DNA of 64,000 nt from Spirochaetia bacterium UBA6919 (lineage in GTDB: Bacteria > Spirochaetota > UBA6919), in contig DKAT01000070.1 of assembly GCA_002450905.1 (NCBI GenBank), positions 70,097 through 134,096 on the forward strand. The letters run 5' to 3'. A program made the translations under genes and the position numbers. The notes beneath the pieces were generated by a model. The model did not search any database. It saw only the letters and a list, made by a program, of their open reading frames with translations, and was not told where the DNA came from. Shown piece by piece: positions 8,186 through 58,535 of the stretch. How positions within the stretch are numbered: position 1 is the first letter of the stretch; each line of letters opens with the position of its first letter.

Positions 8186-8213
8186 ATCGGAACTAAGAAT
8201 TTTGATTCCGATC
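8186..8213. repeat. palindromic motif ATCGGAAC-N13-GATTCCGATC (copy 1 of 4)
   Basis: 7-bp inverted arms atcggaa/ttccgat with a 13-nt spacer. Near-identical copies at 51402-51429, 58508-58535 and 60012-60039, all intergenic. Confidence 0.6.
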
Positions 8214-8350
8214 TTGTTTATTTATTTCGTCAGGGTCTCAAGATTTTTAATTTACCCTGTCGACTTTGTATGAACAATAGTTACTATCCTTGTGAGGCAC
8301 TAATATCCATGACCAGTCAAGACACTGAGTAACGAGAAGACTTACTAGCA

Positions 8351-8440
8351 TGTCATGGTGAGGCTCTCGAACCATGTGATAAACAAGACCCTTCGAGAAC
8401 CTCAGGGTGACGGAGGTTGAGTCTCAGGATGACAGGGATT
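8351..8440. repeat. nested-palindrome repeat element, copy A
   Basis: gtcatggtgaggctctcgaaccatg...cccttcgagaacctcagggtgac, i.e. roughly 20-nt inverted arms around a short loop, followed by a ctcaggatgacag submodule. Same family as the copies at 16242, 18349, 18884, 19618 and 20005. Confidence 0.6.
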
Positions 8441-8496
8441 ATAGCTTAAAGTAACAGGGGTTGTGGCTCAGAGTGTTTTATTTAAGGAGGCTACCA

Positions 8497-9162
8497 ATGG
8501 CGATTATTTTAGAAGGGGTGGATCACAGTCCGGTAATGTGGGGTAAGATAGGCAAACACCTTGTCCAGAGGACTAAACTCGGTAAGATGTTCATTAAAAT
8601 TAAGGTGACACCAGCAAATCCGAAAACTCCAATCCAACAGGAGAAGAGGAGTGCTTTGACTGTGGGGGTTCTAAGATGGAAGAACTTTGAGAAACTCTTT
8701 AATAAGGATTATTGGGATCTTATGGCTGTGGATCATCGGTTTAGAGATGGATATAGGGCATTCTTATCCTCGTTTCTCGTAACCTATAGGATGAAGTTAT
8801 CAGAATTAGGAGATCACACCCAAGCTCTGGAATATGTTTCGAATACATCAAATCCCATTACGTATCAGGAGTCCCCGAAGAAAATTAGGATGGAAGAGAG
8901 AGATCGACGACTCATCAAGGCGATTTATACTTATCGGAAAACGAAAAGTTTTATGAGACAACTGGGACGAAGTTTAAAATATCTGGATACTCATCAGTGG
9001 TTGAATGTCATGCGATATGGGATTCTTCCGGATTCGGGGAAAGTGATTGATGATGTGTGGTACGACATGGGGATTATCCCGCCCTATGAACCGATTCCCA
9101 AGGGAAATTTTGGGACAGGGAAATTCGGGAGAGGGGTTTTTGGGGGAAAGAGGGTAATCTAA
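8497..9162 (+). CDS. hypothetical protein with Gly-rich C-terminus
   Basis: ORF with a strong AAGGAGG RBS 7 nt before the ATG at 8497. The ORF track's 8461 start lies inside the repeat. No recognisable domain. C-terminal GNFGTGKFGRGVFGGK. Confidence 0.5.
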   Translation: MAIILEGVDHSPVMWGKIGKHLVQRTKLGKMFIKIKVTPANPKTPIQQEKRSALTVGVLRWKNFEKLFNKDYWDLMAVDHRFRDGYRAFLSSFLVTYRMKLSELGDHTQALEYVSNTSNPITYQESPKKIRMEERDRRLIKAIYTYRKTKSFMRQLGRSLKYLDTHQWLNVMRYGILPDSGKVIDDVWYDMGIIPPYEPIPKGNFGTGKFGRGVFGGKRVI

Positions 9163-9691: not shown

Positions 9692-9737
9692 ATCTTTGTC
9701 CTCTATTTGATTGGAATATAATATAGAATTATCTTGA

Positions 9738-9807
9738 ATGTCAAGGAAAATATTTTTGTCATAGGTGGTGATTTCGGGTTGGAGGGTCGAGAATCTTTAT
9801 AGGGGTT
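9738..9807 (-). promoter_or_regulatory. ~70-bp conserved cassette-upstream module R1, ending in a TTGACA -35
   Basis: One of 4 near-identical direct repeats (consensus gtcaagaaaaatatttttatcctgagtggtgatttcggg..gacgagaatctttatgggg). In the gene (minus) orientation it ends in TTGACA, followed 17 nt later by TTATAT and an AGAGGA RBS for the LRR gene. Confidence 0.5.
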
Positions 9808-9823
9808 TTGTGATTTCGATGAA

Positions 9824-10039
9824 TTATTTTAACTGATTGAACTCTTCTGAAGTAATACCCATTTGTTTGATGATCTCATAGTATAATGGGGGTTCTATGT
9901 TTGTGGAAGGATGAATAGGAATTGTTGTTGCTCTGCCATCCTTGTGAATCCATCTTTGATGAGATCCCTTCTGGCGTGATATGGAGAATCCCAGTTTCTC
10001 TGCAACCCTTTGAAATGTTTTGGCATTGTCACCTGGCAT
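9824..10039 (-). CDS. hicA: HicA-family mRNA interferase toxin
   Basis: 71 aa. The segment LGFSISRQKGSHQRWIHKDGRATTIPIHP matches the YcfA/HicA fold. Overlaps the upstream hicB by 11 nt. Confidence 0.75.
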   Translation of the reverse strand: MPGDNAKTFQRVAEKLGFSISRQKGSHQRWIHKDGRATTIPIHPSTNIEPPLYYEIIKQMGITSEEFNQLK

Positions 10040-10241
10040 GGATCGATAGTTCTACATCCTCAGGAAGTTCCAGATGTTTTTCAGCATATTCTTCTGCTAT
10101 CATAGAAAACACACATTCCAATTCCTTTAAAACTTCGTCTCTTGTGGGCATAATGGCATGGCATCCTGGAATTGCGGGTATATAAGCTCCCCATGAATTA
10201 TCTTTCTGTTGATATAATACAATTTTATAATTACCGATCAT
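10029..10241 (-). CDS. hicB: HicB-family antitoxin (UPF0150)
   Basis: 70 aa. YxxxxxxxxDGxWxAxxPxxPGC pattern (YQQKDNSWGAYIPAIPGCHA) typical of the HicB N-domain. Sits upstream of hicA. Confidence 0.75.
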   Translation of the reverse strand: MIGNYKIVLYQQKDNSWGAYIPAIPGCHAIMPTRDEVLKELECVFSMIAEEYAEKHLELPEDVELSIHAR

Positions 10242-10271
10242 GGTTTAATGTTAACTAAAATTATTTGCTGT

Positions 10272-10340
10272 GTCAAGAAAAATATTTTTATCCTGAGTGG
10301 TGATTTCGGGTTGGGTTGACGAGAATCTTTATGGGGTTGG
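10272..10340 (-). promoter_or_regulatory. cassette-upstream module R2
   Basis: Repeat copy 2. In minus orientation it ends in TTGACA, then 17 nt, then TAACAT only 6 nt before the hicB ATG, which would give a leaderless or near-leaderless transcript. Confidence 0.5.
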
Positions 10341-10351
10341 TAAATTATTTA

Positions 10352-10555
10352 TTATCGATTTTCTGTGTTGATGGCAATTAAGATTTGTTTTACAACTTTT
10401 GGATGGAGAATTTTTCCACTGTGAAAGGGAATGATAATCTTCTTATCGTCTCTTTCATAGATTCGATGGCTTCCTCTGGTTCTTAGTAATTGAAATCCTG
10501 CTGTTAGTAGAAGAGATTCACCTTCCTTTGCGGTGAGACGAGATTGTTTAGACAA
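10352..10555 (-). CDS. hicA: HicA-family toxin (second copy)
   Basis: 67 aa, RTRGSHRIYERDDKKIIIPFHSGKILHPK. Confidence 0.7.
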   Translation of the reverse strand: MSKQSRLTAKEGESLLLTAGFQLLRTRGSHRIYERDDKKIIIPFHSGKILHPKVVKQILIAINTENR

Positions 10556-10558
10556 TTT

Positions 10559-10774
10559 TTAAACCTCAAGACTTGTTGTGAGAATCTCCTTACTGCATAC
10601 CAGTCTTTTTTCTTCATCTGTCAGGGTTTCCATATAGAGAGTGACTGCTTCTTTGATATTTGCCATAACCTCTTCTATCGTATCACCCTGGGTTTGACAT
10701 CCTTCTAATTCTGGGGAATAGGCGTAGTAGCCAAATTCATCTTTTTCAATAACAATCGATACTTTATAGGACAT
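10559..10774 (-). CDS. hicB: HicB-family antitoxin (second copy)
   Basis: 71 aa, FGYYAYSPELEGCQTQGDTIEEVMANIKEA (UPF0150 pattern). Lies 3 nt upstream of hicA. Confidence 0.7.
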   Translation of the reverse strand: MSYKVSIVIEKDEFGYYAYSPELEGCQTQGDTIEEVMANIKEAVTLYMETLTDEEKRLVCSKEILTTSLEV

Positions 10775-10833
10775 TTATATTATTCCTTGTAATACTTATT
10801 TATCCTCAATATTACATAATTTTCTGTAGATTT

Positions 10834-10895
10834 TCAAGAAAAATATTTTTATCCTGAGTGATGATTTCGGATACGGGTGACGAAAATCTTAGCAG
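10834..10895 (-). promoter_or_regulatory. cassette-upstream module R3
   Basis: Repeat copy 3. In minus orientation: TTGAAA, 17-nt spacer, TAATAT, 34-nt leader with an AAGGA RBS 9 nt before the hicB-2 ATG. Confidence 0.55.
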
Positions 10896-10925
10896 GAAGT
10901 ATTGTTATTAAAAGGATTTTATATA

Positions 10926-12653
10926 TTATTGAGTTAGAAAGCCTTTCAGAAAGCTGGTTAAACCATTTCGTATGCCTCTGACGTTGTATCCCCCTTCCTG
11001 TACAACAAGGATAGGTCTTTTTAATGTGTTCAGCTGTGAAGCAATCTCTTCATATATCCCAGGGCTTAATAGGAAAAGTCCTGTGGGATCACCCTTTAAA
11101 ATATCGAATCCAAGGGAAAGCACTATGACATCTGGATTGTAATTCTTAATAATAGAAATAACCTTTCCAAAGGTCTTTAGATATTTCATTTCATCTGTTT
11201 TTGGAGCTAGAGGGAAATTATAATTATGATGTAAGCCTTCTGCTTCACCTGTCTCAGATTCATAACCACTGAAATAAGGATAGGAATAATCAGGGTGCCC
11301 ATGAATGGATATGGTGAGGACATCACTCCTGTGATAGAAGATATCTTGAGTTCCATTTCCGTGATGGTAGTCTATATCAATTATCACAACACGACCTTCT
11401 AAGCTGAGATAATGGGCTGCAATGGCAGCATTATTAAAATAACAGAAACCCCCATAAAATCTCCTTCCAGCGTGATGACCTGGCGGACGACATACGGCAT
11501 AGGTTAATTTTTTTCCAGATAATATTTCATCAGCACAGGTTAGGACAGCGTTTACTGCAGAACGAGCCGCTTTGTATGCATTGGGATAAAGTGGAGTCCC
11601 TGAATCTAGACAATAATACCCTGCCTGAACAGGTAATAATTTGGGATGATTATCAGGTCTACGGATAGGAAAGGTGTCTGGATAGATGGGTCGTTTTTCT
11701 TTTAGTGTAGTACAAACTGTTCTAAGATAATGTACAAATCTTTTTTCATGGACTGCTAAAATCCATTTCTCTTCATATTCTCTGGGACTTACGATAGATA
11801 TACCTCCTACTGAATCAATTACTTCCCGTATAGTATCTACCCGAACCGGCTTTTCAAAATATCCTCTTTCCTTGATATGATGAATTTCATGTTTAGCAGT
11901 GAAAACACACACCATGCTTGAAATCGATTGTGACTTTGATAATTTTATTTGTTTACTTGAAATGGACTTCACATATCGAAAGGGGTGGAATGGGATGGGG
12001 TCTTCCTGAAATGATTCAATGACGTGCTGGGTATACTCAGGAGTAACTGATTTTGCAAACCGTGTTTTGAATATAAGTTGAATGGTATTCTTAGCATCAT
12101 CTGCACTAAGGGTATTGGATATTCCCAAACCATCGTATAGGAGATAGGCAGTGGATGGAGGGTTACCTGTTGGTGTGGAATAGGCTGGATTATTGATGAT
12201 ACGCACCCCATGTTGTTCATAGAACTGGATTCGTAGTTTAGCTAATTTTAATTCCTCTGGATTAGGTGTTAGTTCTGGTGTATCGGGTTGTACTTCCAGA
12301 TATATACCCTTAACAGACAGGCTCTTGCAGTACTCACTGATCGATTCATAAAGGGCTGATCCAACACCACGACCCTTTAAACCCTCTCGTGTAGCAATAA
12401 AATCAAGAAAACATACATTCTCTTGAGGATAGTAGATAAGAAGAGCAAATCCATCCACTCTACTCATGGCTCCTTCAGCAACAAAAAGAATAGAGCAATA
12501 TTGGTTTGTTATTGGATCAATAATGAGTGATGGAATTTTATCAGAATATCCTTCCAGATATGGAAAATTATATTTAAAAATCTCTTGTATTTGTTTCATT
12601 CTATCTTTTGAGAGAAGAGTTCCAGTATCCCTCAGGATTCGTATTCTAATCAT
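10926..12653 (-). CDS. GNAT acetyltransferase / histone-deacetylase-family (arginase-fold) fusion protein
   Basis: 575 aa. The N-terminal part has a GNAT acetyl-CoA-binding motif (REGLKGRGVGSALYE). The C-terminal part has HDAC-class signatures (HHAGRRFYGGFCYFNN, IIDIDYHHGNGTQDIFY, ISIHG). GGAG RBS 6 nt upstream of the ATG. Confidence 0.75.
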   Translation of the reverse strand: MIRIRILRDTGTLLSKDRMKQIQEIFKYNFPYLEGYSDKIPSLIIDPITNQYCSILFVAEGAMSRVDGFALLIYYPQENVCFLDFIATREGLKGRGVGSALYESISEYCKSLSVKGIYLEVQPDTPELTPNPEELKLAKLRIQFYEQHGVRIINNPAYSTPTGNPPSTAYLLYDGLGISNTLSADDAKNTIQLIFKTRFAKSVTPEYTQHVIESFQEDPIPFHPFRYVKSISSKQIKLSKSQSISSMVCVFTAKHEIHHIKERGYFEKPVRVDTIREVIDSVGGISIVSPREYEEKWILAVHEKRFVHYLRTVCTTLKEKRPIYPDTFPIRRPDNHPKLLPVQAGYYCLDSGTPLYPNAYKAARSAVNAVLTCADEILSGKKLTYAVCRPPGHHAGRRFYGGFCYFNNAAIAAHYLSLEGRVVIIDIDYHHGNGTQDIFYHRSDVLTISIHGHPDYSYPYFSGYESETGEAEGLHHNYNFPLAPKTDEMKYLKTFGKVISIIKNYNPDVIVLSLGFDILKGDPTGLFLLSPGIYEEIASQLNTLKRPILVVQEGGYNVRGIRNGLTSFLKGFLTQ

Positions 12654-12697
12654 ATAGGCTCCATTTTGTTGGAAAATAAAACATTATTATATTGAAT

Positions 12698-12767
12698 GTC
12701 AAGAAAAATATTTTTATCCGGGGTGGTGATTTCGGATCGGGGTTTCGAGAATCTTGAGGGGGTTTGG
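12698..12767 (-). promoter_or_regulatory. cassette-upstream module R4
   Basis: Repeat copy 4. Its 3' end abuts the stop of orf75. Its 5' end carries TTGACA with a weak TTATTT/TATTTT -10, about 40 nt before the GNAT-HDAC ATG. Confidence 0.45.
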
Positions 12768-12775
12768 GAAATGTT

Positions 12776-13003
12776 TTAATCTGTATTAAAATAATTTAGT
12801 TGTTCCTGAGATATTTCTTTCCACGCTGACCTTGGAACTCCATATTCAGTTTCTGCTTGTTCCAATGTGATTTCCAAGGTATCTTGCAAGTGGTCAGCAA
12901 TACTTATTCCACTCTTTTCAGGATATACAAATAAATAATATCCGACACCTTCTTCTTGTTTAAGGATAAGTGTTAATTTAACTTCTGCAATAAGTGGCTT
13001 CAT
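12776..13003 (-). CDS. hypothetical small protein
   Basis: 75-aa acidic ORF between typA and the repeat array. No recognisable domain. Confidence 0.4.
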   Translation of the reverse strand: MKPLIAEVKLTLILKQEEGVGYYLFVYPEKSGISIADHLQDTLEITLEQAETEYGVPRSAWKEISQEQLNYFNTD

Positions 13004-18348: not shown

Positions 18349-18422
18349 TGTCATGGTGAGGTTCTCGAACCATGTTTGTACAACGCTTGTGTGTGTCCCC
18401 CTTCGAGAGCCTCAAGGTGACA
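18349..18422. repeat. nested-palindrome repeat element, copy C
   Basis: attgtcatggtgaggttctcgaaccatg...cccttcgagagcctcaaggtgacaat. The outer 7-bp inverted repeat is also complementary. Confidence 0.6.
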
Positions 18423-18569
18423 ATGGAGTAGCTCTGGGTGTGACGGAGGGAGAAATCAAGCCCTTCGACAGGGAAGGTATTCAATGCCGTGAAGAAAGAT
18501 ATTCAAATAAATGTTCTCCAAATAACGAATATTGATTATAATTATCATAACGTTATTGAATAAAGGGGT

Positions 18570-18710: not shown

Positions 18711-18883
18711 TAGACATCCCAGTGGCAGAAGATGGAACAGGACGTCAATCAGGATAAATTATCGAATCAGATTACAGGAGATGAGATATTATGAGGGTTG
18801 TTGCCAATCACGATGATGTGTTAAAAAATCCGTGATGGGTAGAATTGTCGTCCTTCCCCTGCTCCTGGACAGCCGTGTGCTTG

Positions 18884-18975
18884 TCGCCCTTCGAGAATCT
18901 CAGGGTGAGGAGGGGGAAAATCCTGAATCAAGTTCAGGATGACAGAGAGGGCTGAAGACTCGCCCTACGGAGGAT
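18884..18975. repeat. repeat element copy D (right arm plus ctcaggatgacag / ggctgaag..gcc.tacgga submodules)
   Basis: cccttcgagaatctcagggtgagg...ttcaggatgacagagagggctgaagactcgccctacgga. Shares submodules with copies A and F. Confidence 0.5.
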
Positions 18976-19617: not shown

Positions 19618-19685
19618 TGTCATGGTGAGGCTCTCGAATCCATGACTGGGTGTTGTCGCCCTTCGAGAGCCTCAGGGTGACGGGG
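19618..19685. repeat. nested-palindrome repeat element, copy E
   Basis: tgtcatggtgaggctctcgaatccatg...cccttcgagagcctcagggtgacgg, immediately upstream of the GIY-YIG gene. Confidence 0.6.
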
Positions 19686-19706
19686 GCGGGCATAAAGGAT
19701 TTTAGG

Positions 19707-19976: not shown

Positions 19977-20004
19977 GTCAGAGGTATAGTCCACAAGACG
20001 GTAG

Positions 20005-20095
20005 TCATCCTTCGAGAGCCTCAGGATGACAAGGGGAATTCAGAGTGGCAGTGAGGTGGCAAGGCTGAAGGCTTGCCATACGGAACAATATGATA
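20005..20095. repeat. repeat element copy F (collapsed hairpin form)
   Basis: gtcatccttcgagagcctcaggatgac (7-bp stem around the ttcgagagcctca core), then ggctgaaggcttgccatacgga, a submodule shared with copy D. Confidence 0.5.
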
Positions 20096-21202: not shown

Positions 21203-24200
21203 TTATTTTGCCAACTGCTTAAAGAATTCAATGGATTTTTTATCACCCCAATTTCTTGCACCAACTGTCTTTCCTATTATCACTCCTTCTTTATTGATAA
21301 TCAGGGTAGTGGGAATTGCTGAAACACCAAACATACTTCCCAATGAGTTTCTTTGATCCAAGAATATGGGGAATGTGAAGTTTTTTGATTTTAGAAAATT
21401 CTCAACAACCGATTTTTTTTCACCGAGGGAAACAGCAAGCATTACGAAGTTATCATTTTTCATAGCTTTATGGAGTTTTTCCATTGAAGGCATTTCCTGA
21501 ACGCAGGGGGGACACCATGTTGCCCAGAAATTAAGAAATATGATTTTTCCTTTGTAATTTTTTATGGGAATATTTTTTCCATCTAGATTTGATATAACAA
21601 TATTTCCAATGGTTTGATTCATTGGGGTGATTTTGAGGGCTTTATAACTTCCCATTAATTTTGGATCGATATTTGCTAGTTCAAGACTTGATTTAGCTCC
21701 AGCTTTTTTGAGGATTTCTTTGATTTCATCAGATTTTGCAAGGTCAATAGCTGTAGATCCATTTGATAATTTAAGATTTACCTTCCCACCCTTATCAATA
21801 AGTAATTTTAATATTTCTGGGTGATTATAATGGGTTGCCATGTGAACAGGAGTCATTTGGTACCACCACTTGTTCGATACAGGGATATTTGGGTCAGCAC
21901 CAACTCCCAGAAAGATTTTAACCAGATTCAGATCCCCTTTTTGAATTGCGATGTGAAGTGGGGCAAATCCTTTTTTATTTGTAACATTAATATCAACACC
22001 ATCGGCAATTAGTTTTTTCATCAGGTCTGTATTCCCTTCATCTAATGCCTGGAAGAAACGAATAACAGGATTTTCTTTGCCGCCTGATTTTATTAGAAGT
22101 TGTTTAATTTCTTCATTTTGTGTGAGATTTAAGGGAGTGTTATCTTGTTCATCCTTCGCATTAATGGATGCCCCTTTATTGATGAGTAATTTGATAACCG
22201 GGATATTTTCATAGATGACAGCGACGTGGAGTGGTGTATACCCCCGTTTTGTGCTTTGATTCACGACAGCGCCATTTGCCAGGAGGAAAGTAACTACTTT
22301 GATATCTCCTACTTTAATTGCGATATGGAGTATGGAGACTTCCTGATCATACCAAGTTTTAGAAGGAGATTTAAATGTATAATTTTTAAGGACAGCATTG
22401 GTGTCGGATTTTTTTTGGATGAGGAGTTTAATCATTTCGCCATTTTTATTTTCAACAGCGTGGATTAAAGCTATATCACCCTGAGATCCTTTATTATTTG
22501 GGTCAGCGTCTTGTGAGAGAAGATCTTTTACATTTCCGATATTATTTTCGAGGGCTGCTTTTCTGAGTTCGAAATTAATATTGAATTTAGCCCCTGATTC
22601 TTTTAAAAGTTTTATGATATTTTTGTCTGTAGCAATATCTAATGGAGTTCTGCCTTCTTCATCCTGCTGATTTAAATTAGCATTATTTTTTAAAAGGAGT
22701 TGGGTGATTTTATAATTCTTTGAATAGACAGCGAGATGGAGAGGTGAAACATTTTTAAATAAGTATTTTTTCATGTAGGGGGTGATGTATAAATTTGTGG
22801 TTTGATTGAGATTTACATTTTTTTCGATGAGTTTTTTAACAACAGAAACTGCGTTATTTTGAATGGCTGTGAATAGAGGGGTTAATTTGGAATAACCATA
22901 GATTTCATTGACATTTGCGCCTTTATCAATTAAAAGATTTGCGGTTTTGAAGGATTTTCTTTTGATGGCTGTAATTAGCATAGGTTCATGATTTTTAGAG
23001 GGTTTATAATTTGGATCGGCGCCGTTGTTGAGGTATTCAGAGATTTTTTTGAAATTGTTTGTCGAGATCAGTTTGTATAATTCATAATTAATATTGATTT
23101 TAGCACCGGACTTCAGGAGTAATTCCTTTATGAGTAGATTCTTTGCCAGATCGATAGGTGTAGCTCCCTGGAGGTTAGTGGCATTGACGTTTATGCCTTT
23201 TTTTAAGAGGAGTTGGATGAGATCAGTATATCCATTTTGTGCAGCCCAGTGTAATAAAGTATTTCCGTATAACTTAACCTCGTGGGAAACTCCCTGATTG
23301 ATAAAGAAGATTACCATATTAGGTTTATTTCTTAACCAGGCGTAATGGATGGGATACCAGTCATTATTCATTTTGACATCAAGTCTTGCACCATTTTTGA
23401 GGAGGAATTTTGCCATTTCGACATTACCGTTATATGCTGAGACATGAAGGGGAGAGACACCATAATCAGATTGGACATCTACCTTTGCACCATGCTTGAT
23501 AAGGAGTTTTACGATTTGTTTATTATCGGTTCCAATGGCGAAGTAGATTGGTGTGAATCCAGCACTATTTCTCTTATTAACATCAGCACCTTTTGAAATG
23601 AGAAATTGTGTAATAGCAAAGCTTTTAATGGAAGCAGAAGCGTGAAGAGTGCTCCAATTTGTCGTTGATCCAAAGAATGAATGCAGATCTGTTGTTGCAT
23701 CAGCTTTGGCGCCTTTTTTAATGAGTTCCTGGACTTGTTTAAGATCATTGCTGTTAATTGCCTTGAATAATTCTTTGTTTAGATTAAGTTTAGCACCTGC
23801 ATTAACAAGAAGCTGCTGTATTTCTTTTGTTTTGGCATAGTCAACAGGTGTATTTTTATATTTATCCGAAACATTGAGATCTGCTTTGGCATTAATGAGG
23901 AGCTGAACAACCTTTGCCTGATTATTATAGACAGCGATGTGAAGTGCAGTTGTTCCATAGGAAGTCTTGGCATTGACGTTTGATCCTTTGTCAAGGAGGA
24001 ATTTTACAAGTACGACGTTTGAATTATAATTGATAGAGGAGTGGAGGGGAATCATACCATATTTATTTGTTTTGTTAAGATTTGCACCTTTCTCAAGGAG
24101 TACTTTTACAAGATCGAGTTCCCCTGTTGCTGAGGCGGTGTGGAGGGGAGTATCTCCTGAATAATTTTGGACATGGATATTTACACCTTTGTTTATGAGG

Positions 24201-27200
24201 AAGATAGCGAGGTCTTTATTTCTTTTCTGAATTGCGAGTTGAAGGAGATTTGTTTTGTATCTATCAATAATATTGATATTTGCACCATTATCAATAAGAT
24301 ATTCTGCTATGTCTCTATGATTTGATTCAACAGAATAGAATAGGGATGATTTTCCGTTTCCATCCACAACATCAATTTGGGCGTTTTTTGAAATAAGTAA
24401 TTGAACCAGATCAATATTTCCTTGTTTTGCAGCAAGATGGAGTGGAGTTTGATCTTTTGTGTAGTAAGTGCCAGATAATTTGGAATTTATTTTTGCACCG
24501 TGATCAATTAATTCTTTTGCAATTTCTAAATATCCCTTTTGGGAAGCGATGTGGAGTGGGGTCCAGTCATCTGTTATTCTGGCATTGACATCAGCTTTTT
24601 TTTGTAAGAGGAATTTAACGATATTTTTTTGACCATTATATACTGCGAAGTGAAGGGGCTGTATATTGTTATACATTTTGTAGTAGGTGAGCTTCATGTT
24701 ATTTTGTGCTGTGGTATTTACATTTAGTCCTTGATTTAATAACTTAATAACAAGTTTAGAGTTACCATCGTGGATGGCGTCGAAGAGTTCGATTACCGGA
24801 TTTGGCTTTGCACCTGCTTTTTTTAGTATAGCAATGATATAACTATTTTTAGTTAAGGATATGGGGGAGCGATCTGCTTTATTTTTAATGTTAGTATCAG
24901 CTTTATATTTAATTAACAGTTTGATGACAGGTAAATTTGAGTTTTGAACAGCATGATGGAGGGGTGTATTTTTATAATAATCTTGACTATTAATATTTAT
25001 ACCGCTATTTATAAGTAATTTTGCTATAGCAACACCTTGTGGGGACGAGAATTTTTTTTGAGAGATGGCATGCAGAGCTGATTGATCATAAGAATTTGTT
25101 GAATTGATGTCTATTCCCTTTGAAACAGCGAATTGAGCAATTCTTAGATTTTCTTTTTCAGCAGCTATGTGGAGAATATTTTTTTTGGAATATGGGATAG
25201 CTGAATTGATATCGACACCGTTTTCAATTAATATTTTAGCAATATTTAAATTTGAAAAGTACAAAGCATTTTCTATAGGAGATCTCCCATAAAAAGGTTT
25301 TTTATTTACATCTATACCTTTTTTAATAGCTTCAATGACAATCCATTTGGTGCCAGCCTGAGTAGCTGCGTGGAGGAGGTTTTCACCTCGTTTTGTTTCC
25401 ACAAGGATATTAGCACCTTTTTGATATAATAAACGGGAGATAGAAGAAAATCCGTTGTATGTTGCAAAATAGAGAGCTGTATATCCATAGTTATCTTGAT
25501 GATTAATATTTGCACCCTTATTGATCAGGTAGAGAGCAATTGACTTAGACTTATTAACGAGAGCTTCAATCAACGCGGAACGATTATTTGATGTGATGGT
25601 TTTATTAATATCTGCACCATGAGATAGGAGTAATTCAACTGTTTTTGTACTTGTACTTTTGACTGCTCTGATAAGGGGTGTGTATCCATATCCATCAACG
25701 ACATCTACTTTAACCCCTTTATCTAAAAATAATTTAACAATTTTAGTATATCCGTAGAATGCGGCAATATGGATGGGTTGCCATTTTGCGTAATCTCCTT
25801 CAGTATGGATATTCGCACCATTATTTACAAGATATTGCACTAGTTGATAATTTCCGGAATAGACAGCATCGTGCAGAGGAGTTTTATTGTAAGTTGTTTT
25901 GGAATTTATATCAAAACCCATGCTCAGTAATTTTTTAACCAGATCAAGATTTCCTGAATTTGCGGCATCGTGAAGGAGATTTCGGTTTCCGTAATAAGTG
26001 GTTTTGGTTTCTACCTTATATTGCATGAGAATGTTAATAATTTTTGTCAAATTGTATTGTACAGCAACTTTAATGGGGCTTGTCTTGTATCTATCGACGA
26101 TATTAGGATTCGCACCATGAGATAGGAGGAATTGAACCATTTCAGGTTTGTTGTGCTTAACTGCAAGGATGAGTGGAGATTCACCATTTTGAGTCAGGCT
26201 GTTCACATCAAAATCATTTTTAAGCAGATATTGTGCGATTTTAATGCTTCCACTTTCAGCTGAGAAATGCAGAGCGTTAAAACCCTGATTATTGGTGTCT
26301 TTGAGTGGAACACCTTTTTTTAATAATAATTTAAGGAGGTCAAAATTACCACTCTTAGCGGAAATATGAATCAAATTGTTATTGAAAAGGTATTTAAAAT
26401 CAATTTTGCCACCCTTCTCGATAAGGTATTTTGTGATTTCATAATTTCCATTTTGTACAGCGAGGCTGAGTGGGGTTTCACCGGGTTGAAAGTTTTTACC
26501 AAGGACTCTATAATAACTTGTGGATTTTAAGTTAATATCAAGGCCTTTTTGAACAAATTGCTTTACCAGTTTGAGATTATTGGTAATAACAGCCGTGTGG
26601 AGAGGTGACCATTGGAAACGGGTTGGATCTATCTTAGCACCCCGACTTAACAAATAATTGACTATATGAATATGATTATGCTGAACAGCGAAATCCAGAG
26701 GGCTTGCGGTATTATTATCAATACCATTTATATTAAAACCCTTTTTTAAGAGGTACTTTACAAACCATAGTGATCCTCCTGAACAGGCTGAGTGGAGAAG
26801 AGAATAGGATCTTTGATTGTTTGCATCTATGACAGCACCCATTTTGATAAGATATTTTATAGAATTGAGTTTATTGAAATCAGCCGCTGCCTGGAGGGGT
26901 GTGTATCCGTTGTTATCCTGCACATTGATATTGGCACCAATTTTAATCAGATAGGAAATAAGCCAGTGCAAATTGCCTCCTGCAGCTGAGTGCATCAGGG
27001 TAAGCCCTCTTGCATCTTTTGCCCAGATATTGGCATTTTTACGGATAAGTAATCGGACGATATCACTATGTCCCTGTTCAGCAGCAATTAAAAGAGGGGT
27101 GGAGTGAATGGGATATTCGTATTTAGTAGAAATTGCGAAATAATATTTTGATTTGGCGTCGACATTTGCACCGGATTCAATAAGATAATTTGCTATATCG

Positions 27201-27403
27201 TATCCACCATAATAAGATACCCAGTGAAGTGGAGTCCATCCTTTTTTATCAAATGAATTTACGTCATAATCATTTTCAACAAGAATACTTTTAACCTGAG
27301 TGAGAGACTTATTTTTAATAGCTTGTATAAGATTATCCTCTGGTTTAGCCCAGGTGATGGCAGTGATCAATAACAACAGGATTACAGGTAGGATGCGTTT
27401 CAT
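21203..27403 (-). CDS. giant secreted ankyrin-repeat protein with C-terminal TlpA-like thioredoxin domain
   Basis: 2066 aa. Cleavable signal peptide MKRILPVILLLLITAITWA. Then more than 50 tandem about-33-aa ankyrin units (TPLHxAxxxGHxxxVxxLLxxGA). The final about 150 aa are a thiol:disulfide oxidoreductase domain with WATWCPPC (FLNFWATWCPPCVQEMP). AAGGAG RBS. Confidence 0.88.
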   Translation of the reverse strand: MKRILPVILLLLITAITWAKPEDNLIQAIKNKSLTQVKSILVENDYDVNSFDKKGWTPLHWVSYYGGYDIANYLIESGANVDAKSKYYFAISTKYEYPIHSTPLLIAAEQGHSDIVRLLIRKNANIWAKDARGLTLMHSAAGGNLHWLISYLIKIGANINVQDNNGYTPLQAAADFNKLNSIKYLIKMGAVIDANNQRSYSLLHSACSGGSLWFVKYLLKKGFNINGIDNNTASPLDFAVQHNHIHIVNYLLSRGAKIDPTRFQWSPLHTAVITNNLKLVKQFVQKGLDINLKSTSYYRVLGKNFQPGETPLSLAVQNGNYEITKYLIEKGGKIDFKYLFNNNLIHISAKSGNFDLLKLLLKKGVPLKDTNNQGFNALHFSAESGSIKIAQYLLKNDFDVNSLTQNGESPLILAVKHNKPEMVQFLLSHGANPNIVDRYKTSPIKVAVQYNLTKIINILMQYKVETKTTYYGNRNLLHDAANSGNLDLVKKLLSMGFDINSKTTYNKTPLHDAVYSGNYQLVQYLVNNGANIHTEGDYAKWQPIHIAAFYGYTKIVKLFLDKGVKVDVVDGYGYTPLIRAVKSTSTKTVELLLSHGADINKTITSNNRSALIEALVNKSKSIALYLINKGANINHQDNYGYTALYFATYNGFSSISRLLYQKGANILVETKRGENLLHAATQAGTKWIVIEAIKKGIDVNKKPFYGRSPIENALYFSNLNIAKILIENGVDINSAIPYSKKNILHIAAEKENLRIAQFAVSKGIDINSTNSYDQSALHAISQKKFSSPQGVAIAKLLINSGININSQDYYKNTPLHHAVQNSNLPVIKLLIKYKADTNIKNKADRSPISLTKNSYIIAILKKAGAKPNPVIELFDAIHDGNSKLVIKLLNQGLNVNTTAQNNMKLTYYKMYNNIQPLHFAVYNGQKNIVKFLLQKKADVNARITDDWTPLHIASQKGYLEIAKELIDHGAKINSKLSGTYYTKDQTPLHLAAKQGNIDLVQLLISKNAQIDVVDGNGKSSLFYSVESNHRDIAEYLIDNGANINIIDRYKTNLLQLAIQKRNKDLAIFLINKGVNIHVQNYSGDTPLHTASATGELDLVKVLLEKGANLNKTNKYGMIPLHSSINYNSNVVLVKFLLDKGSNVNAKTSYGTTALHIAVYNNQAKVVQLLINAKADLNVSDKYKNTPVDYAKTKEIQQLLVNAGAKLNLNKELFKAINSNDLKQVQELIKKGAKADATTDLHSFFGSTTNWSTLHASASIKSFAITQFLISKGADVNKRNSAGFTPIYFAIGTDNKQIVKLLIKHGAKVDVQSDYGVSPLHVSAYNGNVEMAKFLLKNGARLDVKMNNDWYPIHYAWLRNKPNMVIFFINQGVSHEVKLYGNTLLHWAAQNGYTDLIQLLLKKGINVNATNLQGATPIDLAKNLLIKELLLKSGAKININYELYKLISTNNFKKISEYLNNGADPNYKPSKNHEPMLITAIKRKSFKTANLLIDKGANVNEIYGYSKLTPLFTAIQNNAVSVVKKLIEKNVNLNQTTNLYITPYMKKYLFKNVSPLHLAVYSKNYKITQLLLKNNANLNQQDEEGRTPLDIATDKNIIKLLKESGAKFNINFELRKAALENNIGNVKDLLSQDADPNNKGSQGDIALIHAVENKNGEMIKLLIQKKSDTNAVLKNYTFKSPSKTWYDQEVSILHIAIKVGDIKVVTFLLANGAVVNQSTKRGYTPLHVAVIYENIPVIKLLINKGASINAKDEQDNTPLNLTQNEEIKQLLIKSGGKENPVIRFFQALDEGNTDLMKKLIADGVDINVTNKKGFAPLHIAIQKGDLNLVKIFLGVGADPNIPVSNKWWYQMTPVHMATHYNHPEILKLLIDKGGKVNLKLSNGSTAIDLAKSDEIKEILKKAGAKSSLELANIDPKLMGSYKALKITPMNQTIGNIVISNLDGKNIPIKNYKGKIIFLNFWATWCPPCVQEMPSMEKLHKAMKNDNFVMLAVSLGEKKSVVENFLKSKNFTFPIFLDQRNSLGSMFGVSAIPTTLIINKEGVIIGKTVGARNWGDKKSIEFFKQLAK

Positions 27404-30700: not shown

Positions 30701-30880
30701 ATCCATGATCTCCGGGCTTGCACCTTTGAGTGTCGTTGTAATGGTGACCATTGGATAATCTACTTTCGGGTACAGATCAAGACCAATATCTGGGTAACTG
30801 ACAACACCAAGTATGACAAGGGATGCTATCATCATCGTTGCAAAGACAGGCCTTTTAATAGAAGTATCAGCTAACCACAT
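27761..30880 (-). CDS. RND efflux transporter permease (HAE1/AcrB family), pump 2
   Basis: 1039 aa, 12-TM architecture with two large periplasmic loops, and RND motifs throughout. About 60% identical to the upstream paralog. Confidence 0.9.
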   Translation of the reverse strand: MWLADTSIKRPVFATMMIASLVILGVVSYPDIGLDLYPKVDYPMVTITTTLKGASPEIMDIDVTDKIEEAVNTINGVKSISSSSTEETSVITIEFILERNIDLSVQDVREKVSSIRSLLPKDILEPIIQKVDPDATPILWLNLTGRKSVRDLSTYADEVLKNKIQRINGVGAIQLSGLRLRQVRIWLSIDKLSAHQITAQDISNALSKENIELPGGRIESKTKEYGIKIKGEFRSPQQFNELIIGYDKGTPIRIQDVGRAEDSMEEKRSIARFNGKTTVALGVQKQSGTNTVAVIKLVKKELENIKTTLPPGMAIDISFDQSTFIQRSINEVKTHLIYGGIFAALAVLLFLKSFRITLISALAIPTSVIATFYMIYFFNFTFNDMTMLALSLSIGILIDDAIIVIENIHRHIETGLSPKEASSKATSEIGLAVMATTMAVVAIFLPVAFMKGMIGRFFLQFALTVVFSVMFSLFVSFTLTPMLSSKFLKRTHHSDPSYHKTLIGKISDLIEKPYFLLENMYRKTLDLALRHRIIVITCTIIIFILSLYLTNFIGKELIPPEDQGSFIIRLEAPIDYSIDQSDKMFNKVENYLKSLPEVKSVFYSLGTNQGEINKATMFVTLTPKIQRKRYQDELKSIVRKKLNNIVGLKASAEDVTSFAGEGQERQVPIQLSIRGIDLKVLEHLTKKISAEVRKIKGFVDIDTSLKSGKPELRVFINRDKAADLSINAATIGEAINFLIGGEVDITKYKDERKGRRYDVRVRLFHKDRSDPKDIEQIYVRSNDNRLIKLQNIIDIKETGGPNVINRVDRQRAITLFANLEGKTLGQAKQELDKILSNVLSFGYSGRYKGSAELMSESFQYLYFALILGIILAYMILASQFESFIHPFTILLSMPFSFIGAFGALYLANMTLNIYSYIGLILLMGLVKKNAILLVDYTNTLRNQGMERKEAILKAGPVRLRPILMTTMAMVFGMLPIALATGEGAESRAPMAVATIGGLMSSLFLTLIVVPVVYDLFDEIQSRFKSKNIDEDEDEVLIPQ

Positions 30881-51401: not shown

Positions 51402-51429
51402 ATCGGAACCAAAATTTCTGATTCCGATC
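51402..51429. repeat. palindromic motif ATCGGAAC-N13-GATTCCGATC (copy 2)
   Basis: catcggaaccaaaatttctgattccgatcc. See copy 1. Confidence 0.6.
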
Positions 51430-51625
51430 CTCATCGTTGGTGTTGACTGTGTGTATATATTTTAAATTTTCAATATTGATAAGTTTTCTTGTCTATTTTT
51501 ATAGTTGGAATTATATTTGATCTACACGGATTTACATCTGTTCAAAGGATTGAAATGAGACAGGGATATTAAATATCATCAGACTCTGTTGTAAATTATT
51601 TAAATCATTTTTTGGAGAAAAAATT

Positions 51626-58507: not shown

Positions 58508-58535
58508 ATCGGAACCAAAATTTCTGATTCCGATC
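58508..58535. repeat. palindromic motif ATCGGAAC-N13-GATTCCGATC (copy 3)
   Basis: aatcggaaccaaaatttctgattccgatc. Confidence 0.6.

What the first reader, a model, noticed from the sequence alone, without database searches (positions are those of the whole stretch)
10926..12653. Single polypeptide fusing a GNAT acetyltransferase to an HDAC-type deacetylase, embedded among TA cassettes
Residues about 40-200 carry a GNAT acetyl-CoA-binding signature (REGLKGRGVGSALYE). Residues about 230-575 carry the full HDAC/arginase-fold signature set (HHAGRRFYGGFCYFNN, DIDYHHGNGTQ, ISIHG). Writer and eraser of the same modification in one protein is unusual. In Bacillus the corresponding activities, AcuA and AcuC, are separate proteins. 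GNAT toxins (AtaT/TacT type) are known type II toxins whose acetylation can be reversed by deacetylases. Together with the cassette location and the private promoter module, this could be a self-contained acetylation-switch or toxin-antidote fusion, or a polyamine or small-molecule acetylation cycle enzyme.
Basis: partly seen in the sequence, partly recalled or inferred. Interest (0 to 1): 0.6.

Follow-up and report, generated by a model that had tools for sequence, protein, structure and literature searches.

The report
Fused acetyltransferase–deacetylase enzyme, uncharacterised family
This gene really does encode one protein that joins an enzyme that adds acetyl groups to an enzyme that removes them; it belongs to a widespread but unstudied bacterial family that most likely cycles a small amine between free and acetylated forms, and it is not a toxin-antitoxin device.

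Summary
The 575-aa ORF at 10926-12653 (-) is real, uninterrupted and colinear with over 120 full-length relatives (47-72% identity) from many phyla. Residues 1-231 form a GNAT acetyltransferase with two extra helices, 232-246 a variable linker, and 247-572 a Zn-dependent deacetylase whose closest solved relatives are acetylpolyamine amidohydrolases (APAH). Catalytic residues of both halves are invariant in 38 of 38 members. One metagenome contig carries the halves as two genes overlapping by 4 bp, so they are a functional pair.

The deacetylase halves of fused and split forms make one clade that excludes 60 standalone APAHs and has its own signature: PTG for PIS, Phe403 for Tyr, Arg/Lys398 for Asp/Glu. 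This GNAT type was never found beside a standalone APAH.

The toxin-antitoxin reading fails. The two hicBA pairs and the "private" promoter module occur only in this genome, and the module is a 107-nt repeat shared by four adjacent units. About ten other contexts show no adjacent toxin-antitoxin genes, and there is no defence-model hit and no plasmid or phage copy.

In 7 of 20 more distant loci the gene adjoins a lysine-2,3-aminomutase, two ATP-grasp ligases and a GNAT, which points to a small amine substrate. The best reading is a bifunctional small-molecule acetylation/deacetylation enzyme. It is an uncharacterised variant of known kinds.

The parts
10926..12653 (-). Complete gene for the 575-aa GNAT-deacetylase fusion protein (stop codon included)
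   Evidence: ORF list. Identical protein P0001 is in the public collection. Colinear with 37 aligned homologues.
11961..12653 (-). Residues 1-231: GNAT acetyltransferase module. The core (b1-a1-a2-b2-b3-b4-a3-b5-a4-b6-b7) spans residues 3-174. Two family-specific helices follow (184-197, 205-213), then the conserved DDPV.FRP.RY tail.
   Evidence: Pfam Acetyltransf_1, 32.3 bits against a cut-off of 20.7. AlphaFold model pLDDT 86.8, pTM 0.84. Foldseek matches to Gcn5, PCAF, Ard1, PaiA and SpeG at about 1e-7. Standalone ~240-aa versions end exactly at this boundary.
12360..12377 (-). Acetyl-CoA pyrophosphate-binding loop K93-G-R-G96-V-G98 (GNAT motif A, Q/R-x-x-G-x-G/A)
   Evidence: G96 and G98 are invariant in 38/38. 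Position 93 is R/K in 30/38.
12219..12221 (-). Tyr145 in the F-Y-E-x-x-G motif of helix a4, the presumed general acid of the acetyltransferase
   Evidence: Invariant in 38/38. The catalytic role is inferred from established GNAT enzymology and was not tested.
11916..11960 (-). Residues 232-246: variable, disordered inter-domain linker
   Evidence: pLDDT below 50. Mean pairwise identity 17%, against 56% and 63% in the flanking domains. In the split form in L093 the genes divide exactly here.
10926..11915 (-). Residues 247-575 plus stop: Zn-dependent deacetylase of the arginase/HDAC fold, APAH-like, including the L1 hairpin (H255-E-I-H-H259 ... F266) and the extended L2 loop (F328-P-I-R-R ... 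Q343-A-G-Y-Y-C-L-D350)
   Evidence: Pfam Hist_deacetyl E 3.3e-76. Full-length matches to APAH structures 6phr, 3q9b, 9gkz and 3men at E 1e-56 to 1e-64. The top 16 Foldseek hits are all APAH.
11472..11477 (-). Catalytic His393-His394 within C-R-P-P-G-H-H-A (the RPPGHH motif)
   Evidence: Invariant in 38/38. The motif is defined in PMC11532494.
11364..11378 (-). D426-I-D428-Y-H430: K+ site ligand D426 and Zn ligands D428 and H430
   Evidence: Invariant in 38/38. Homologous to MrApaH D195/H197 by alignment offset.
11103..11105 (-). Asp517, the third Zn ligand
   Evidence: Invariant in 38/38.
11079..11087 (-). P523-T-G525 'gatekeeper' motif. This is the subfamily signature that replaces PIS of polyamine deacetylases and PEG of HDAC10.
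   Evidence: PTG occurs in 30/31 fused proteins plus the split form, against PIS in 41/60 standalone APAHs. The meaning of the motif comes from PMC11532494.
10986..10988 (-). Catalytic Tyr556 of the E-G-G-Y motif
   Evidence: Invariant in 38/38.
12659..12765 (-). Upstream copy of the 107-nt repeat that carries a sigma-70-like promoter: TTGACA at 12702-12697, an 18-nt spacer, TATTTT at 12678-12673. It is followed by GGAG at 12659-12662. This is the likely promoter of the gene.
   Evidence: Promoter scan. Repeat family D5. Motif search found 3 exact-core copies against 0 expected. Alignment of the four copies.

Best explanation
The ORF encodes a genuine, conserved bifunctional enzyme. An N-terminal GNAT N-acetyltransferase is joined by a flexible linker to a C-terminal Zn2+-dependent deacetylase of the acetylpolyamine-amidohydrolase (APAH) type.

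Shown: both halves are intact, both are under purifying selection, and they are evolutionarily locked together, either fused or as two translationally coupled genes. The deacetylase half belongs to its own clade with altered substrate-contact residues.

Inferred mechanism. The GNAT half binds acetyl-CoA through the K93-x-x-G96-x-G98 loop and transfers the acetyl group to a primary amine. Tyr145 would act as general acid and Asp84 or Glu120 as base. The deacetylase half hydrolyses the same or a closely related N-acetyl amide using His393/His394, Zn (Asp428, His430, Asp517) and Tyr556.

The substrate is most likely a small amine, meaning a diamine or a basic amino acid of the lysine, beta-lysine or ornithine type, or possibly a short polyamine. 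A protein is less likely, because the loops that close the APAH active site (L1, L2) are kept. The acidic residues that hold long polycations are lost or reversed (Glu106 to Pro, Asp163 to Arg/Lys).

The pair would either set the free/acetylated ratio of that amine according to acetyl-CoA supply, or act in sequence on two different nitrogens as a protect/deprotect step.

The gene is a stand-alone chromosomal gene. In this genome it happens to lie in a small array of units that share a promoter-bearing repeat, two of which are hicBA pairs.
For: The ORF is intact and both domains are above Pfam thresholds.

More than 120 full-length relatives at 47-72% identity occur in Spirochaetota, Planctomycetota (including Ca. 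Scalindua), Sumerlaeota, Hydrogenedentota and Bacteroidota. A further 20 fused loci come from other phyla. A search with the GNAT-half profile returns 357 representatives at 50% clustering with E <= 1e-10.

Conservation is 56% (GNAT), 63% (deacetylase) and 17% (linker), and all catalytic residues are invariant in 38/38.

A split form exists: a 244-aa GNAT gene whose TGA overlaps the GTG of a 335-aa deacetylase gene. That deacetylase aligns without gaps to residues 247-572 (44% identity, E 2e-99).

The deacetylase halves of 31 fused proteins plus the split one are monophyletic and exclude all 60 standalone APAHs. Their signature is PTG, F403 and R/K398. The family GNAT is absent from all 60 standalone-APAH loci.

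APAH affinity: full-length matches to 6phr, 3q9b, 9gkz and 3men at 195-221 bits, against 133 bits or less for other single HDAC domains. The L1 and L2 loops align. The top 16 Foldseek hits are APAHs.

Small-molecule context: 7/20 fused loci adjoin a KamA-family enzyme that keeps the lysine-binding Asp293 and Asp330 of lysine 2,3-aminomutase, plus two Ddl-like ATP-grasp ligases and a GNAT. None of the 60 standalone-APAH loci do. A Thermoguttaceae homologue lies downstream of a RimK/GSH-S ATP-grasp, a MATCAP peptidase and an FGase.
Against: No activity of either half has been measured for any member, and I found no publication on the family.

The GNAT fold search does not discriminate between substrates. 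Gcn5/PCAF (protein lysine), Ard1 (protein N-terminus), PaiA/SpeG (polyamine) and streptothricin acetyltransferases all score alike at 12-22% identity.

The aminomutase/ATP-grasp linkage is seen only in relatives at 39-49% identity. It is absent from this 64-kb window and from the eight distinct contexts sampled for relatives above 50% identity.

Phe403 and a neutral PTG gatekeeper resemble protein-lysine deacetylases more than polyamine deacetylases. A cluster-4 APAH can also deacetylate peptides and AcsA (PMC11532494).

Two opposing activities on one substrate would waste acetyl-CoA unless they are regulated, and I have no evidence of such regulation.

The inter-domain geometry is not reliably predicted (pTM 0.58).
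Confidence: 0.5

Rival explanations
1. It is a dedicated protein-lysine acetylation switch. The GNAT half acetylates a specific protein, for example an acyl-CoA synthetase or another metabolic enzyme, and the deacetylase half removes the mark. That would be AcuA/AcuC logic in a single chain.
For: The top Foldseek matches of the GNAT half include Gcn5/PCAF and Ard1. The deacetylase clade has Phe403 and a neutral PTG in place of the Tyr and PIS of polyamine deacetylases, and it lacks Glu106. The cluster-4 enzyme PsApaH deacetylates peptides and acetylated AcsA (PMC11532494). In Ca. Scalindua the gene lies directly downstream of the CODH/acetyl-CoA synthase cluster and a thioesterase. Stand-alone genes in housekeeping contexts would fit a global regulator.
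Against: The L1 hairpin and the extended L2 loop, which occlude the APAH active site against peptides, are retained and conserved. No candidate target gene is conserved next to it. The only recurrent neighbours are small-molecule enzymes: aminomutase, ATP-grasp ligases and a GNAT. No curated protein-acetyltransferase model (Pat/AcuA) is matched.
Confidence: 0.27
2. Only one half is a working enzyme. The other half is a sensor or scaffold. For example, the GNAT module could bind acetyl-CoA or CoA and gate the deacetylase allosterically, which would avoid a futile cycle.
For: Opposing activities in one chain invite futile cycling. At least one three-domain relative (P0178) has a degenerate deacetylase Zn site, with DLEGSH in place of DIDYHH. 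So loss of one activity is tolerated in some lineages.
Against: In the 38 aligned two-domain members every catalytic residue of both halves is invariant: G96, G98, Y145, H393, H394, D428, H430, D517 and Y556. Both halves have similar overall conservation. Standalone GNATs of this family exist, which suggests an autonomous enzyme.
Confidence: 0.12
3. It is a toxin-antidote or toxin-antitoxin-like fusion. The GNAT half would be an AtaT/TacT-like toxin and the deacetylase half its built-in antidote, recruited into an array of TA cassettes.
For: Two hicBA pairs lie immediately downstream, and the gene shares a 107-nt promoter-bearing repeat with them.
Against: The hicBA pairs, the repeat and the 75-aa upstream ORF are found with the gene only in this organism's contigs. 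About ten other contexts show unrelated housekeeping neighbours, with one hicBA pair 5 kb away in L082 and none adjacent. No DUF1778/RHH antitoxin gene is present. There is no PADLOC hit. None of 72,556 plasmids and none of 50,697 phages carry the fusion. No AtaT/TacT-type structure appears among the 50 best fold matches. The family is conserved at 47-72% identity across phyla as a chromosomal gene.
Confidence: 0.02
4. It is an artefact: two adjacent genes joined by a sequencing or assembly error.
For: A two-gene version exists in nature (L093).
Against: The ORF is continuous in this window and in an independent contig from a sequencing run (L001). More than 120 independent sequences from many sources have the same colinear single-ORF architecture.
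Confidence: 0.01

Closest known systems
Bacterial acetylpolyamine amidohydrolases (APAH / 'cluster 4' classical deacylases: Mycoplana ramosa ApaH 3Q9B, Pseudomonas sp. ApaH 9GKZ, Marinobacter APAH 6PHR, Burkholderia 3MEN)
   Same: The C-terminal half matches them over its full length at 30-38% identity, E 1e-56 to 1e-64, with target-normalised TM 0.77-0.84. The RPPGHH and EGGY motifs, the Zn and K+ ligands, the L1 hairpin with Phe27 (F266 here) and the extended L2 'polyamine-specificity loop' are all present.
   Different: It is always coupled to a dedicated GNAT, either fused or as an overlapping gene, whereas APAHs are single-domain proteins of about 340 aa. It forms a separate clade. PIS becomes PTG, Tyr168 becomes Phe403, and Glu106 (His in PsApaH) becomes Pro/Ala341. 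The dimer salt-bridge Asp163 becomes Arg/Lys398. Substrate and oligomeric state are unknown.
AcuA/AcuC of Bacillus subtilis (GNAT acetyltransferase and class-I-like deacetylase that control acetyl-CoA synthetase)
   Same: A GNAT writer and a classical Zn-dependent eraser are encoded together and act on one target. This is the same logic of paired opposing activities.
   Different: AcuA and AcuC are separate proteins. AcuC belongs to cluster 2c, not to the APAH cluster (PMC11532494). Neither half here matches an AcuA or AcuC model. There is no acsA/acu context.
AblA/AblB pathway for N-epsilon-acetyl-beta-lysine (lysine-2,3-aminomutase plus a GNAT)
   Same: In 7 of 20 more distant family loci the fusion gene is adjacent to a KamA-family enzyme. 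That enzyme is closest to AblA-type lysine 2,3-aminomutase (472-496 bits) and retains the lysine-binding aspartates. This is the same gene pairing as ablA-ablB.
   Different: No match to the AblB model. The aminomutase scores below the AblA equivalog cut-off of 525 bits. Two ATP-grasp ligases and a second GNAT are also present. None of this is found in the present window.
Bifunctional enzymes with opposing activities on one chain (GlnE, GlnD, SpoT/Rel, PFK-2/FBPase-2, GGDEF-EAL proteins). This comparison is from general knowledge.
   Same: A 'writer' domain and an 'eraser' domain of the same modification are fused, which suggests set-point control of a modification state.
   Different: The chemistry is different (acetylation). 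No regulatory domain is evident apart from two extra helices. Reciprocal regulation is not shown.
GNAT type II toxins (AtaT, TacT, KacT, ItaT)
   Same: The GNAT fold, and a location next to type II TA genes in this genome.
   Different: The architecture is a 575-aa two-domain protein, against toxins of about 170 aa. There is no DUF1778/RHH antitoxin, no conserved TA context, and the distribution is chromosomal and housekeeping-like.

Membership tests
Classical Zn-dependent deacetylases (arginase/HDAC fold, Pfam PF00850) | Profile match above the curated threshold | tested here: met
   256.9 bits against a cut-off of 27.9, residues 267-570
Classical Zn-dependent deacetylases (arginase/HDAC fold, Pfam PF00850) | Double-His, Zn ligands Asp-His-Asp, and the catalytic Tyr of xGGY | tested here: met
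   H393/H394, D428/H430/D517 and Y556 are present and invariant in 38/38
Acetylpolyamine amidohydrolases (cluster 4 of Graf et al. 2024) | Closest solved relatives are APAHs over the whole domain | tested here: met
   6phr, 3q9b, 9gkz and 3men score 195-221 bits over query 240-572. The next single-domain HDAC scores 133 bits or less. The top 16 Foldseek hits are APAHs.
Acetylpolyamine amidohydrolases (cluster 4 of Graf et al. 2024) | RPPGHH and EGGY motifs | tested here: met
   CRPPGHHA at 388-395 and QEGGY at 552-556
Acetylpolyamine amidohydrolases (cluster 4 of Graf et al. 2024) | Extended L2 loop (polyamine-specificity loop) and N-terminal L1 hairpin with Phe27 | tested here: met
   Residues 253-355 align to MrApaH 14-120 with gaps of only 1-3 residues. 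F27 corresponds to F266. These loops have low pLDDT in the monomer model.
Acetylpolyamine amidohydrolases (cluster 4 of Graf et al. 2024) | PIS motif after the third Zn ligand | tested here: not met
   PTG in 30/31 fused proteins plus the split form. PIS in 41/60 standalone APAHs.
Acetylpolyamine amidohydrolases (cluster 4 of Graf et al. 2024) | Acidic or His residue at the end of L2 (Glu106 / His106) that binds the distal polyamine nitrogen, and Tyr168 lining the tunnel | tested here: not met
   Position 341 is Pro in 27 and Ala in 10 of 38. Position 403 is Phe in 38/38, against Tyr in 58/60 standalone APAHs.
Acetylpolyamine amidohydrolases (cluster 4 of Graf et al. 2024) | Head-to-head dimer stabilised by the Arg95-Asp163 salt bridge | tested here: inconclusive
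   Arg95 is kept as R331 (38/38). Asp163 is replaced by Arg/Lys398 in 27/31. The oligomeric state itself cannot be tested here.
Acetylpolyamine amidohydrolases (cluster 4 of Graf et al. 2024) | Deacetylation of acetylputrescine, acetylcadaverine or acetylspermidine | not testable with these tools
   Needs an enzyme assay
GNAT superfamily | Profile match above threshold, and the GNAT fold | tested here: met
   PF00583 scores 32.3 bits against a cut-off of 20.7. The model has canonical GNAT topology at pLDDT 86.8. 544 PDB matches at E <= 1e-3, and all 50 listed are GNATs.
GNAT superfamily | Motif A Q/R-x-x-G-x-G/A, and a Tyr in helix a4 | tested here: met
   K93-G-R-G96-V-G98, with G96 and G98 invariant and position 93 R/K in 30/38. 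F144-Y145-E146 are invariant.
GNAT type II toxins (AtaT/TacT/KacT/ItaT) | Small single-domain toxin with an adjacent DUF1778/RHH antitoxin gene | tested here: not met
   This is a 575-aa two-domain protein. The upstream 75-aa ORF has no significant Pfam hit (best E 0.27, Xre-like) and is not conserved with the family.
GNAT type II toxins (AtaT/TacT/KacT/ItaT) | TA or defence context conserved among relatives, and frequent carriage on mobile elements | tested here: not met
   No adjacent TA genes in about ten other contexts. No PADLOC hit. No plasmid or phage copy of the fusion.
AcuA/AcuC acetoin-utilisation pair | AcuC-type (cluster 2c) deacetylase, AcuA-type GNAT, and acsA/acu operon context | tested here: not met
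   The deacetylase is nearest to cluster-4 APAHs. No curated acetyltransferase model is matched. The neighbours are TypA, hicBA and an LRR gene.
AblA/AblB (N-epsilon-acetyl-beta-lysine synthesis) | GNAT matches the AblB model | tested here: not met
   No AblB hit at E <= 1 for the window protein or for four aminomutase-linked relatives
AblA/AblB (N-epsilon-acetyl-beta-lysine synthesis) | Adjacent lysine-2,3-aminomutase gene | tested here: not met
   Absent from the 64-kb window. Present in 7/20 more distant fused loci.

The most novel reading that the evidence does not exclude
The family is a single-chain acetyl 'writer-eraser' that works as a homeostat for a small-molecule amine pool. Candidates are lysine, beta-lysine or ornithine-type solutes, or short polyamines. 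The acetylated fraction would be set by acetyl-CoA/CoA through reciprocal control of the two active sites. For acetylation this would be the counterpart of SpoT, GlnE or PFK-2/FBPase-2. In the aminomutase-linked lineages it would control a beta-lysine-derived metabolite made by the neighbouring ATP-grasp ligases.
Probability: 0.3. Interest if true: 0.7.

Novelty: new variant of a known kind. Interest (0 to 1): 0.5.

Why it matters
Reversible acetylation in bacteria is normally described as separate writers (GNATs) and erasers (sirtuins, classical deacetylases). The recent survey of bacterial classical deacylases does not mention a GNAT-coupled class.

This window shows a widespread lineage, with hundreds of sequence clusters in at least ten phyla, mostly uncultivated. 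In it a distinct APAH-like deacetylase is always locked to its own GNAT.

If both halves act on one substrate, this is a compact one-gene system for studying how opposing acetylation activities are balanced. It may also lead to unknown acetylated amine metabolites, given the link to aminomutase/ATP-grasp cassettes.

It also corrects a tempting over-reading. Lying next to toxin-antitoxin cassettes does not make a GNAT a toxin.

Tried and rejected
- **TA/defence reading.** Rejected after a PADLOC scan, Pfam scans of the neighbours, a tblastn search for the hicBA genes and the 75-aa ORF in 92 related loci, context sampling and plasmid and phage searches.
- **Integron attC-like recombination site for the 107-nt repeat.** Rejected because it shows no secondary structure beyond shuffled controls (z -0.01 to -0.67). 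The repeat was found in none of the other loci fetched.
- **Substrate from the GNAT fold.** Foldseek against the PDB gave only generic GNAT matches. A profile search of PDB sequences was weak (best E 3e-4). NCBIfam gave nothing.
- **Literature.** Six searches and targeted reading of two reviews and the deacylase survey found no description of the fusion. The 2009 amidoligase comparative-genomics paper could not be retrieved.
- **A universally conserved neighbour.** None was found.
- **Polyamine genes in the window.** None were seen within about 10 kb. The neighbours are SerRS, Rnf subunits, an aldehyde dehydrogenase, TypA, a glyoxalase-family protein and two-component proteins.
- **Inter-domain geometry.** The full-length model (pTM 0.58) is not reliable enough to use.
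Full report
**Observation**

The window carries an ATG-initiated open reading frame of 575 codons at 10926-12653 on the minus strand. It has no internal stop and a GGAG lies 5 nt before the start codon.

Pfam places Hist_deacetyl at 267-570 (E 3.3e-76, 256.9 bits, cut-off 27.9) and Acetyltransf_1 at 53-124 (E 1.3e-7, 32.3 bits, cut-off 20.7). An identical protein is encoded on an independent contig from a sequencing run.

**The fusion is a family, not an accident**

A search of 5.8 billion proteins returned at least 120 clusters that cover about 99% of the query at 47-72% identity. Most of them carry precomputed hits to both Pfam domains. Named sources include Spirochaetota, Thermoguttaceae, Pirellulales, Sumerlaeota, Hydrogenedentota and the cultured Bacteroidota species Catalinimonas alkaloidigena. 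The 66%-identical cluster is Candidatus Scalindua.

A scan of one genome per species added 20 fused loci. These come from Nitrospirales, Phycisphaerae, Gemmatimonadota, Desulfuromonas, Desulfonatronovibrio, Myxococcales, Acidobacteriota, Eisenbacteria and others. It also returned 60 standalone APAH-like genes that match only residues ~225-572. A profile of the GNAT half finds 357 representatives at 50% clustering with E <= 1e-10.

In an alignment of 38 members the protein is colinear throughout. Mean pairwise identity is 56% in the GNAT core, 45% in a helical extension, 17% in the linker and 63% in the deacetylase.

**Anatomy**

A confident model of residues 1-240 (pLDDT 86.8, pTM 0.84) shows the canonical GNAT topology, followed by two extra helices (184-197, 205-213). 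The linker 232-244 is disordered.

Invariant GNAT residues include G96 and G98 of the acetyl-CoA loop, Y145 of the F-Y-E-x-x-G motif, and E60, D84 and D124; E120 is nearly invariant (36/38). Invariant deacetylase residues are H393/H394, D426, D428, H430, D517 and Y556. Both halves therefore look catalytically competent. That is an inference from conservation, not a measurement.

**What the deacetylase half is**

By sequence, the best single-domain matches among solved structures are acetylpolyamine amidohydrolases aligned end to end. These are Marinobacter 6PHR, Mycoplana 3Q9B, Pseudomonas 9GKZ and Burkholderia 3MEN (E 1e-56 to 1e-64). The higher scores of HDAC6 are the sum of its two domains. 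By structure, the top 16 matches are the same APAHs, and no solved chain covers both halves.

The survey of bacterial deacylases (PMC11532494) lists the features of these 'cluster 4' polyamine deacetylases. Against that list:

| Feature in solved APAHs | Here |
|---|---|
| RPPGHH and EGGY motifs | present |
| L1 hairpin with Phe27 | present (F266) |
| Extended L2 'polyamine-specificity loop' | present |
| PIS motif | PTG |
| Tyr168 | Phe403 |
| Glu106 (MrApaH) / His106 (PsApaH) | Pro/Ala341 |
| Asp163, partner of Arg95 in the dimer salt bridge | Arg/Lys398 |

In a neighbour-joining tree of 92 deacetylase domains, the 31 fused proteins and the one split form make a single clade with none of the 60 standalone APAHs inside it. 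The four substitutions in the table are diagnostic of that clade. So this is a sister or sub-lineage of the APAHs with a remodelled, less acidic substrate entrance. It is not an ordinary APAH.

**The two halves are an evolutionary unit**

In metagenome contig L093, a 244-aa GNAT of this family ends with a TGA that overlaps the GTG start of a 335-aa deacetylase. That deacetylase aligns without gaps to residues 247-572 (44% identity, E 2e-99) and carries the clade signature.

Conversely, the family-specific GNAT is absent from all 60 standalone-APAH loci within 10 kb. Standalone GNAT modules of about 240 aa, GNAT-deacetylase-GNAT proteins, and one gene call that joins a Ddl-like ATP-grasp to this GNAT also exist.

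**Context**

In this window the gene lies between typA and two tandem hicB-hicA pairs, followed by a small LRR gene. The wider region is ordinary chromosome: seryl-tRNA synthetase, Rnf subunits, an aldehyde dehydrogenase and two-component genes. TypA (77% identity) and the fusion (72%) both have 'Spirochaetota bacterium' as their nearest named relatives, and the window has about 36% G+C.

The 'private promoter module' is one of four copies of a ~107-nt repeat, at 9701-9807, 10233-10339, 10794-10900 and 12659-12765. The copies precede the LRR gene, hicBA-2, hicBA-1 and the fusion gene, and each carries a TTGACA-type promoter. The repeat has no secondary structure beyond chance and occurs in none of the other loci fetched.

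The hicBA genes and the 75-aa upstream ORF accompany no other family member. Contexts were sampled for nine relatives at 51-72% identity. One was represented on two near-identical contigs and another was seen in two assemblies, so they give eight distinct contexts. The neighbours are unrelated: PS decarboxylase and glycosyltransferases, transketolase and Mfd, sulfatases, and the CODH/ACS cluster. The fusion has no PADLOC hit. None of 72,556 plasmids or 50,697 phages carries the full architecture. The toxin-antidote reading is therefore rejected.

**A functional lead from more distant relatives**

In 7 of 20 fused genome loci (L007, L008, L011, L013, L015, L020, L021; 39-49% identity) the gene is next to a recurring cassette, often in the same operon. 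The cassette comprises a KamA-family radical-SAM aminomutase, two D-Ala-D-Ala-ligase-like ATP-grasp enzymes and a small GNAT. None of the 60 standalone-APAH loci has it.

The aminomutase is closest to AblA-type lysine 2,3-aminomutase (472-496 bits, just below the 525-bit equivalog cut-off). It aligns with the Clostridium enzyme 2A5H at E 1.5e-136 and keeps Asp293 and Asp330. From my recollection of the LAM literature, those residues bind the lysine epsilon-ammonium group.

A Thermoguttaceae homologue lies downstream of a RimK/glutathione-synthetase-type ATP-grasp, a MATCAP-like peptidase and an FGase-family amidohydrolase.

These are enzymes of small amine or amino-acid metabolites. The pairing of a lysine aminomutase with a GNAT recalls ablA-ablB, although the GNAT here does not match the AblB model. 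None of this is present in the 64-kb window.

**Most likely mechanism**

My best explanation (confidence about 0.5) is a bifunctional small-molecule enzyme.
- The GNAT half acetylates a primary amine from acetyl-CoA.
- The APAH-like half hydrolyses the same or a closely related N-acetyl amide.
- The retained lid loops argue for a small substrate.
- The loss of Glu106 and the charge reversal at position 398 argue against long polycations. They favour a diamine or a basic amino acid of the lysine, beta-lysine or ornithine type.

Whether the two activities oppose each other (set-point control) or act on different nitrogens in sequence is not known.

**Rivals**

- A dedicated protein-lysine switch (about 0.27). 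It is supported by Phe403, the neutral PTG, the Gcn5-like fold matches, and the known peptide and AcsA activity of a cluster-4 enzyme.
- One half acting as a sensor and not as an enzyme (about 0.12).
- A toxin-antidote fusion (about 0.02).
- An assembly artefact (about 0.01).

**Novelty and verdict**

Both domains are of well-known kinds, and the proteins are already in databases under generic names: 'histone deacetylase family protein' and 'AcuC-like enzyme/GNAT'. I found no paper that describes or characterises the fusion. The 2024 survey of bacterial deacylases does not mention it in its main text. That literature search covers open-access papers and preprints only.

I rate it a new variant of a known kind. 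It is a distinct APAH-like deacetylase clade that is obligately coupled to its own GNAT, and it is of moderate interest (0.5).

Noticed in passing
window 9701-9807, 10233-10339, 10794-10900, 12659-12765 (minus strand): Four copies of a ~107-nt repeat precede four consecutive minus-strand units: the LRR gene, hicBA-2, hicBA-1 and the fusion gene. The core is CCGAAATCAyCAC..GGATAAAAATATTTTTCTTGAcA and includes a 12-nt palindrome AAAAATATTTTT abutting a TTGACA -35 box. This looks like a shared promoter/operator or a trace of cassette-wise assembly. It is not attC-like and occurs in none of the other loci fetched.
   Followed up: partly
window 9824-10774 (minus strand): Two tandem hicB-hicA pairs with very short HicB proteins (70-71 aa). 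The Pfam matches cover only the first half of the HicB_lk_antitox model, and no DNA-binding domain was detected. How they autoregulate is unclear. The shared upstream repeat may be relevant.
   Followed up: no
L007 6284-9923; L008 4483-8316; L015 1334-3849; L020 5907-10381; L021 8352-14374; also L011 and L013: A recurrent cassette lies next to the fusion gene in Desulfuromonas, Desulfonatronovibrio, Planctomycetota, Eisenbacteria and Acidobacteriota MAGs. It comprises a lysine-2,3-aminomutase-like radical SAM enzyme, two Ddl-like ATP-grasp ligases and a small GNAT. In L021 my ORF call joins ATP-grasp and GNAT matches in one 792-aa frame. The product is unknown, possibly a beta-lysine-containing acetylated metabolite.
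   Followed up: partly
P0141 (762 aa), P0178 (738 aa), P0173 (540 aa): Architectural variants of the family. P0141 and P0178 are three-domain GNAT-deacetylase-GNAT proteins. In P0178 the Zn site of the deacetylase is degenerate (DLEGSH for DIDYHH). P0173 is a gene call that joins a Ddl-like ATP-grasp to the family GNAT, and may be two merged genes.
   Followed up: no
L089 1-9734 (Candidatus Scalindua contig): The 66%-identical Scalindua homologue lies on the same strand directly downstream of the CODH/acetyl-CoA synthase gene cluster and a 4HBT thioesterase. This may be a link to acetyl-CoA metabolism, or coincidence.
   Followed up: no
L085/L086 3939-9845 (Thermoguttaceae): Same-strand run of an FGase-family amidohydrolase, a MATCAP-like metallopeptidase, a RimK/glutathione-synthetase-type ATP-grasp and then the fusion gene. 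This is another ATP-grasp association.
   Followed up: no
window 8383-8416, 18393-18426, 18881-18914, 19653-19686, 20002-20035: Five copies of a 34-nt GC-rich element with the core CCCTTCGAGAGCCTCAGGGTGAC, which contains an inverted repeat. It is probably a REP-like intergenic element.
   Followed up: no
window 8186-8232, 51402-51448, 58484-58556, 60012-60058: Copies of a palindromic element, ATCGGAACcAAAAtTTcTGATTCCGAT, at several intergenic sites. It may be a terminator or an operator-like repeat.
   Followed up: no
window 27761-30880 and 30949-34047 (minus strand): Two adjacent paralogous genes of about 1035 aa each. They are 70-77% identical at the DNA level over several 300-nt blocks and repeat with a period of ~3170 nt. 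They were not annotated here.
   Followed up: no
window 21203-27403 (minus strand): A 2066-aa ORF with many internal degenerate repeats (repeat families D6, D13 and D14). It is probably a large repeat-containing surface protein.
   Followed up: no
window 8461-9162 (+) and 12776-13003 (-): Two ORFs have no Pfam or PADLOC match. One is 233 aa with a TTG start. The other is the 75-aa ORF between typA and the fusion gene, and it lies upstream of the repeat copy. Neither is conserved near other family members.
   Followed up: partly
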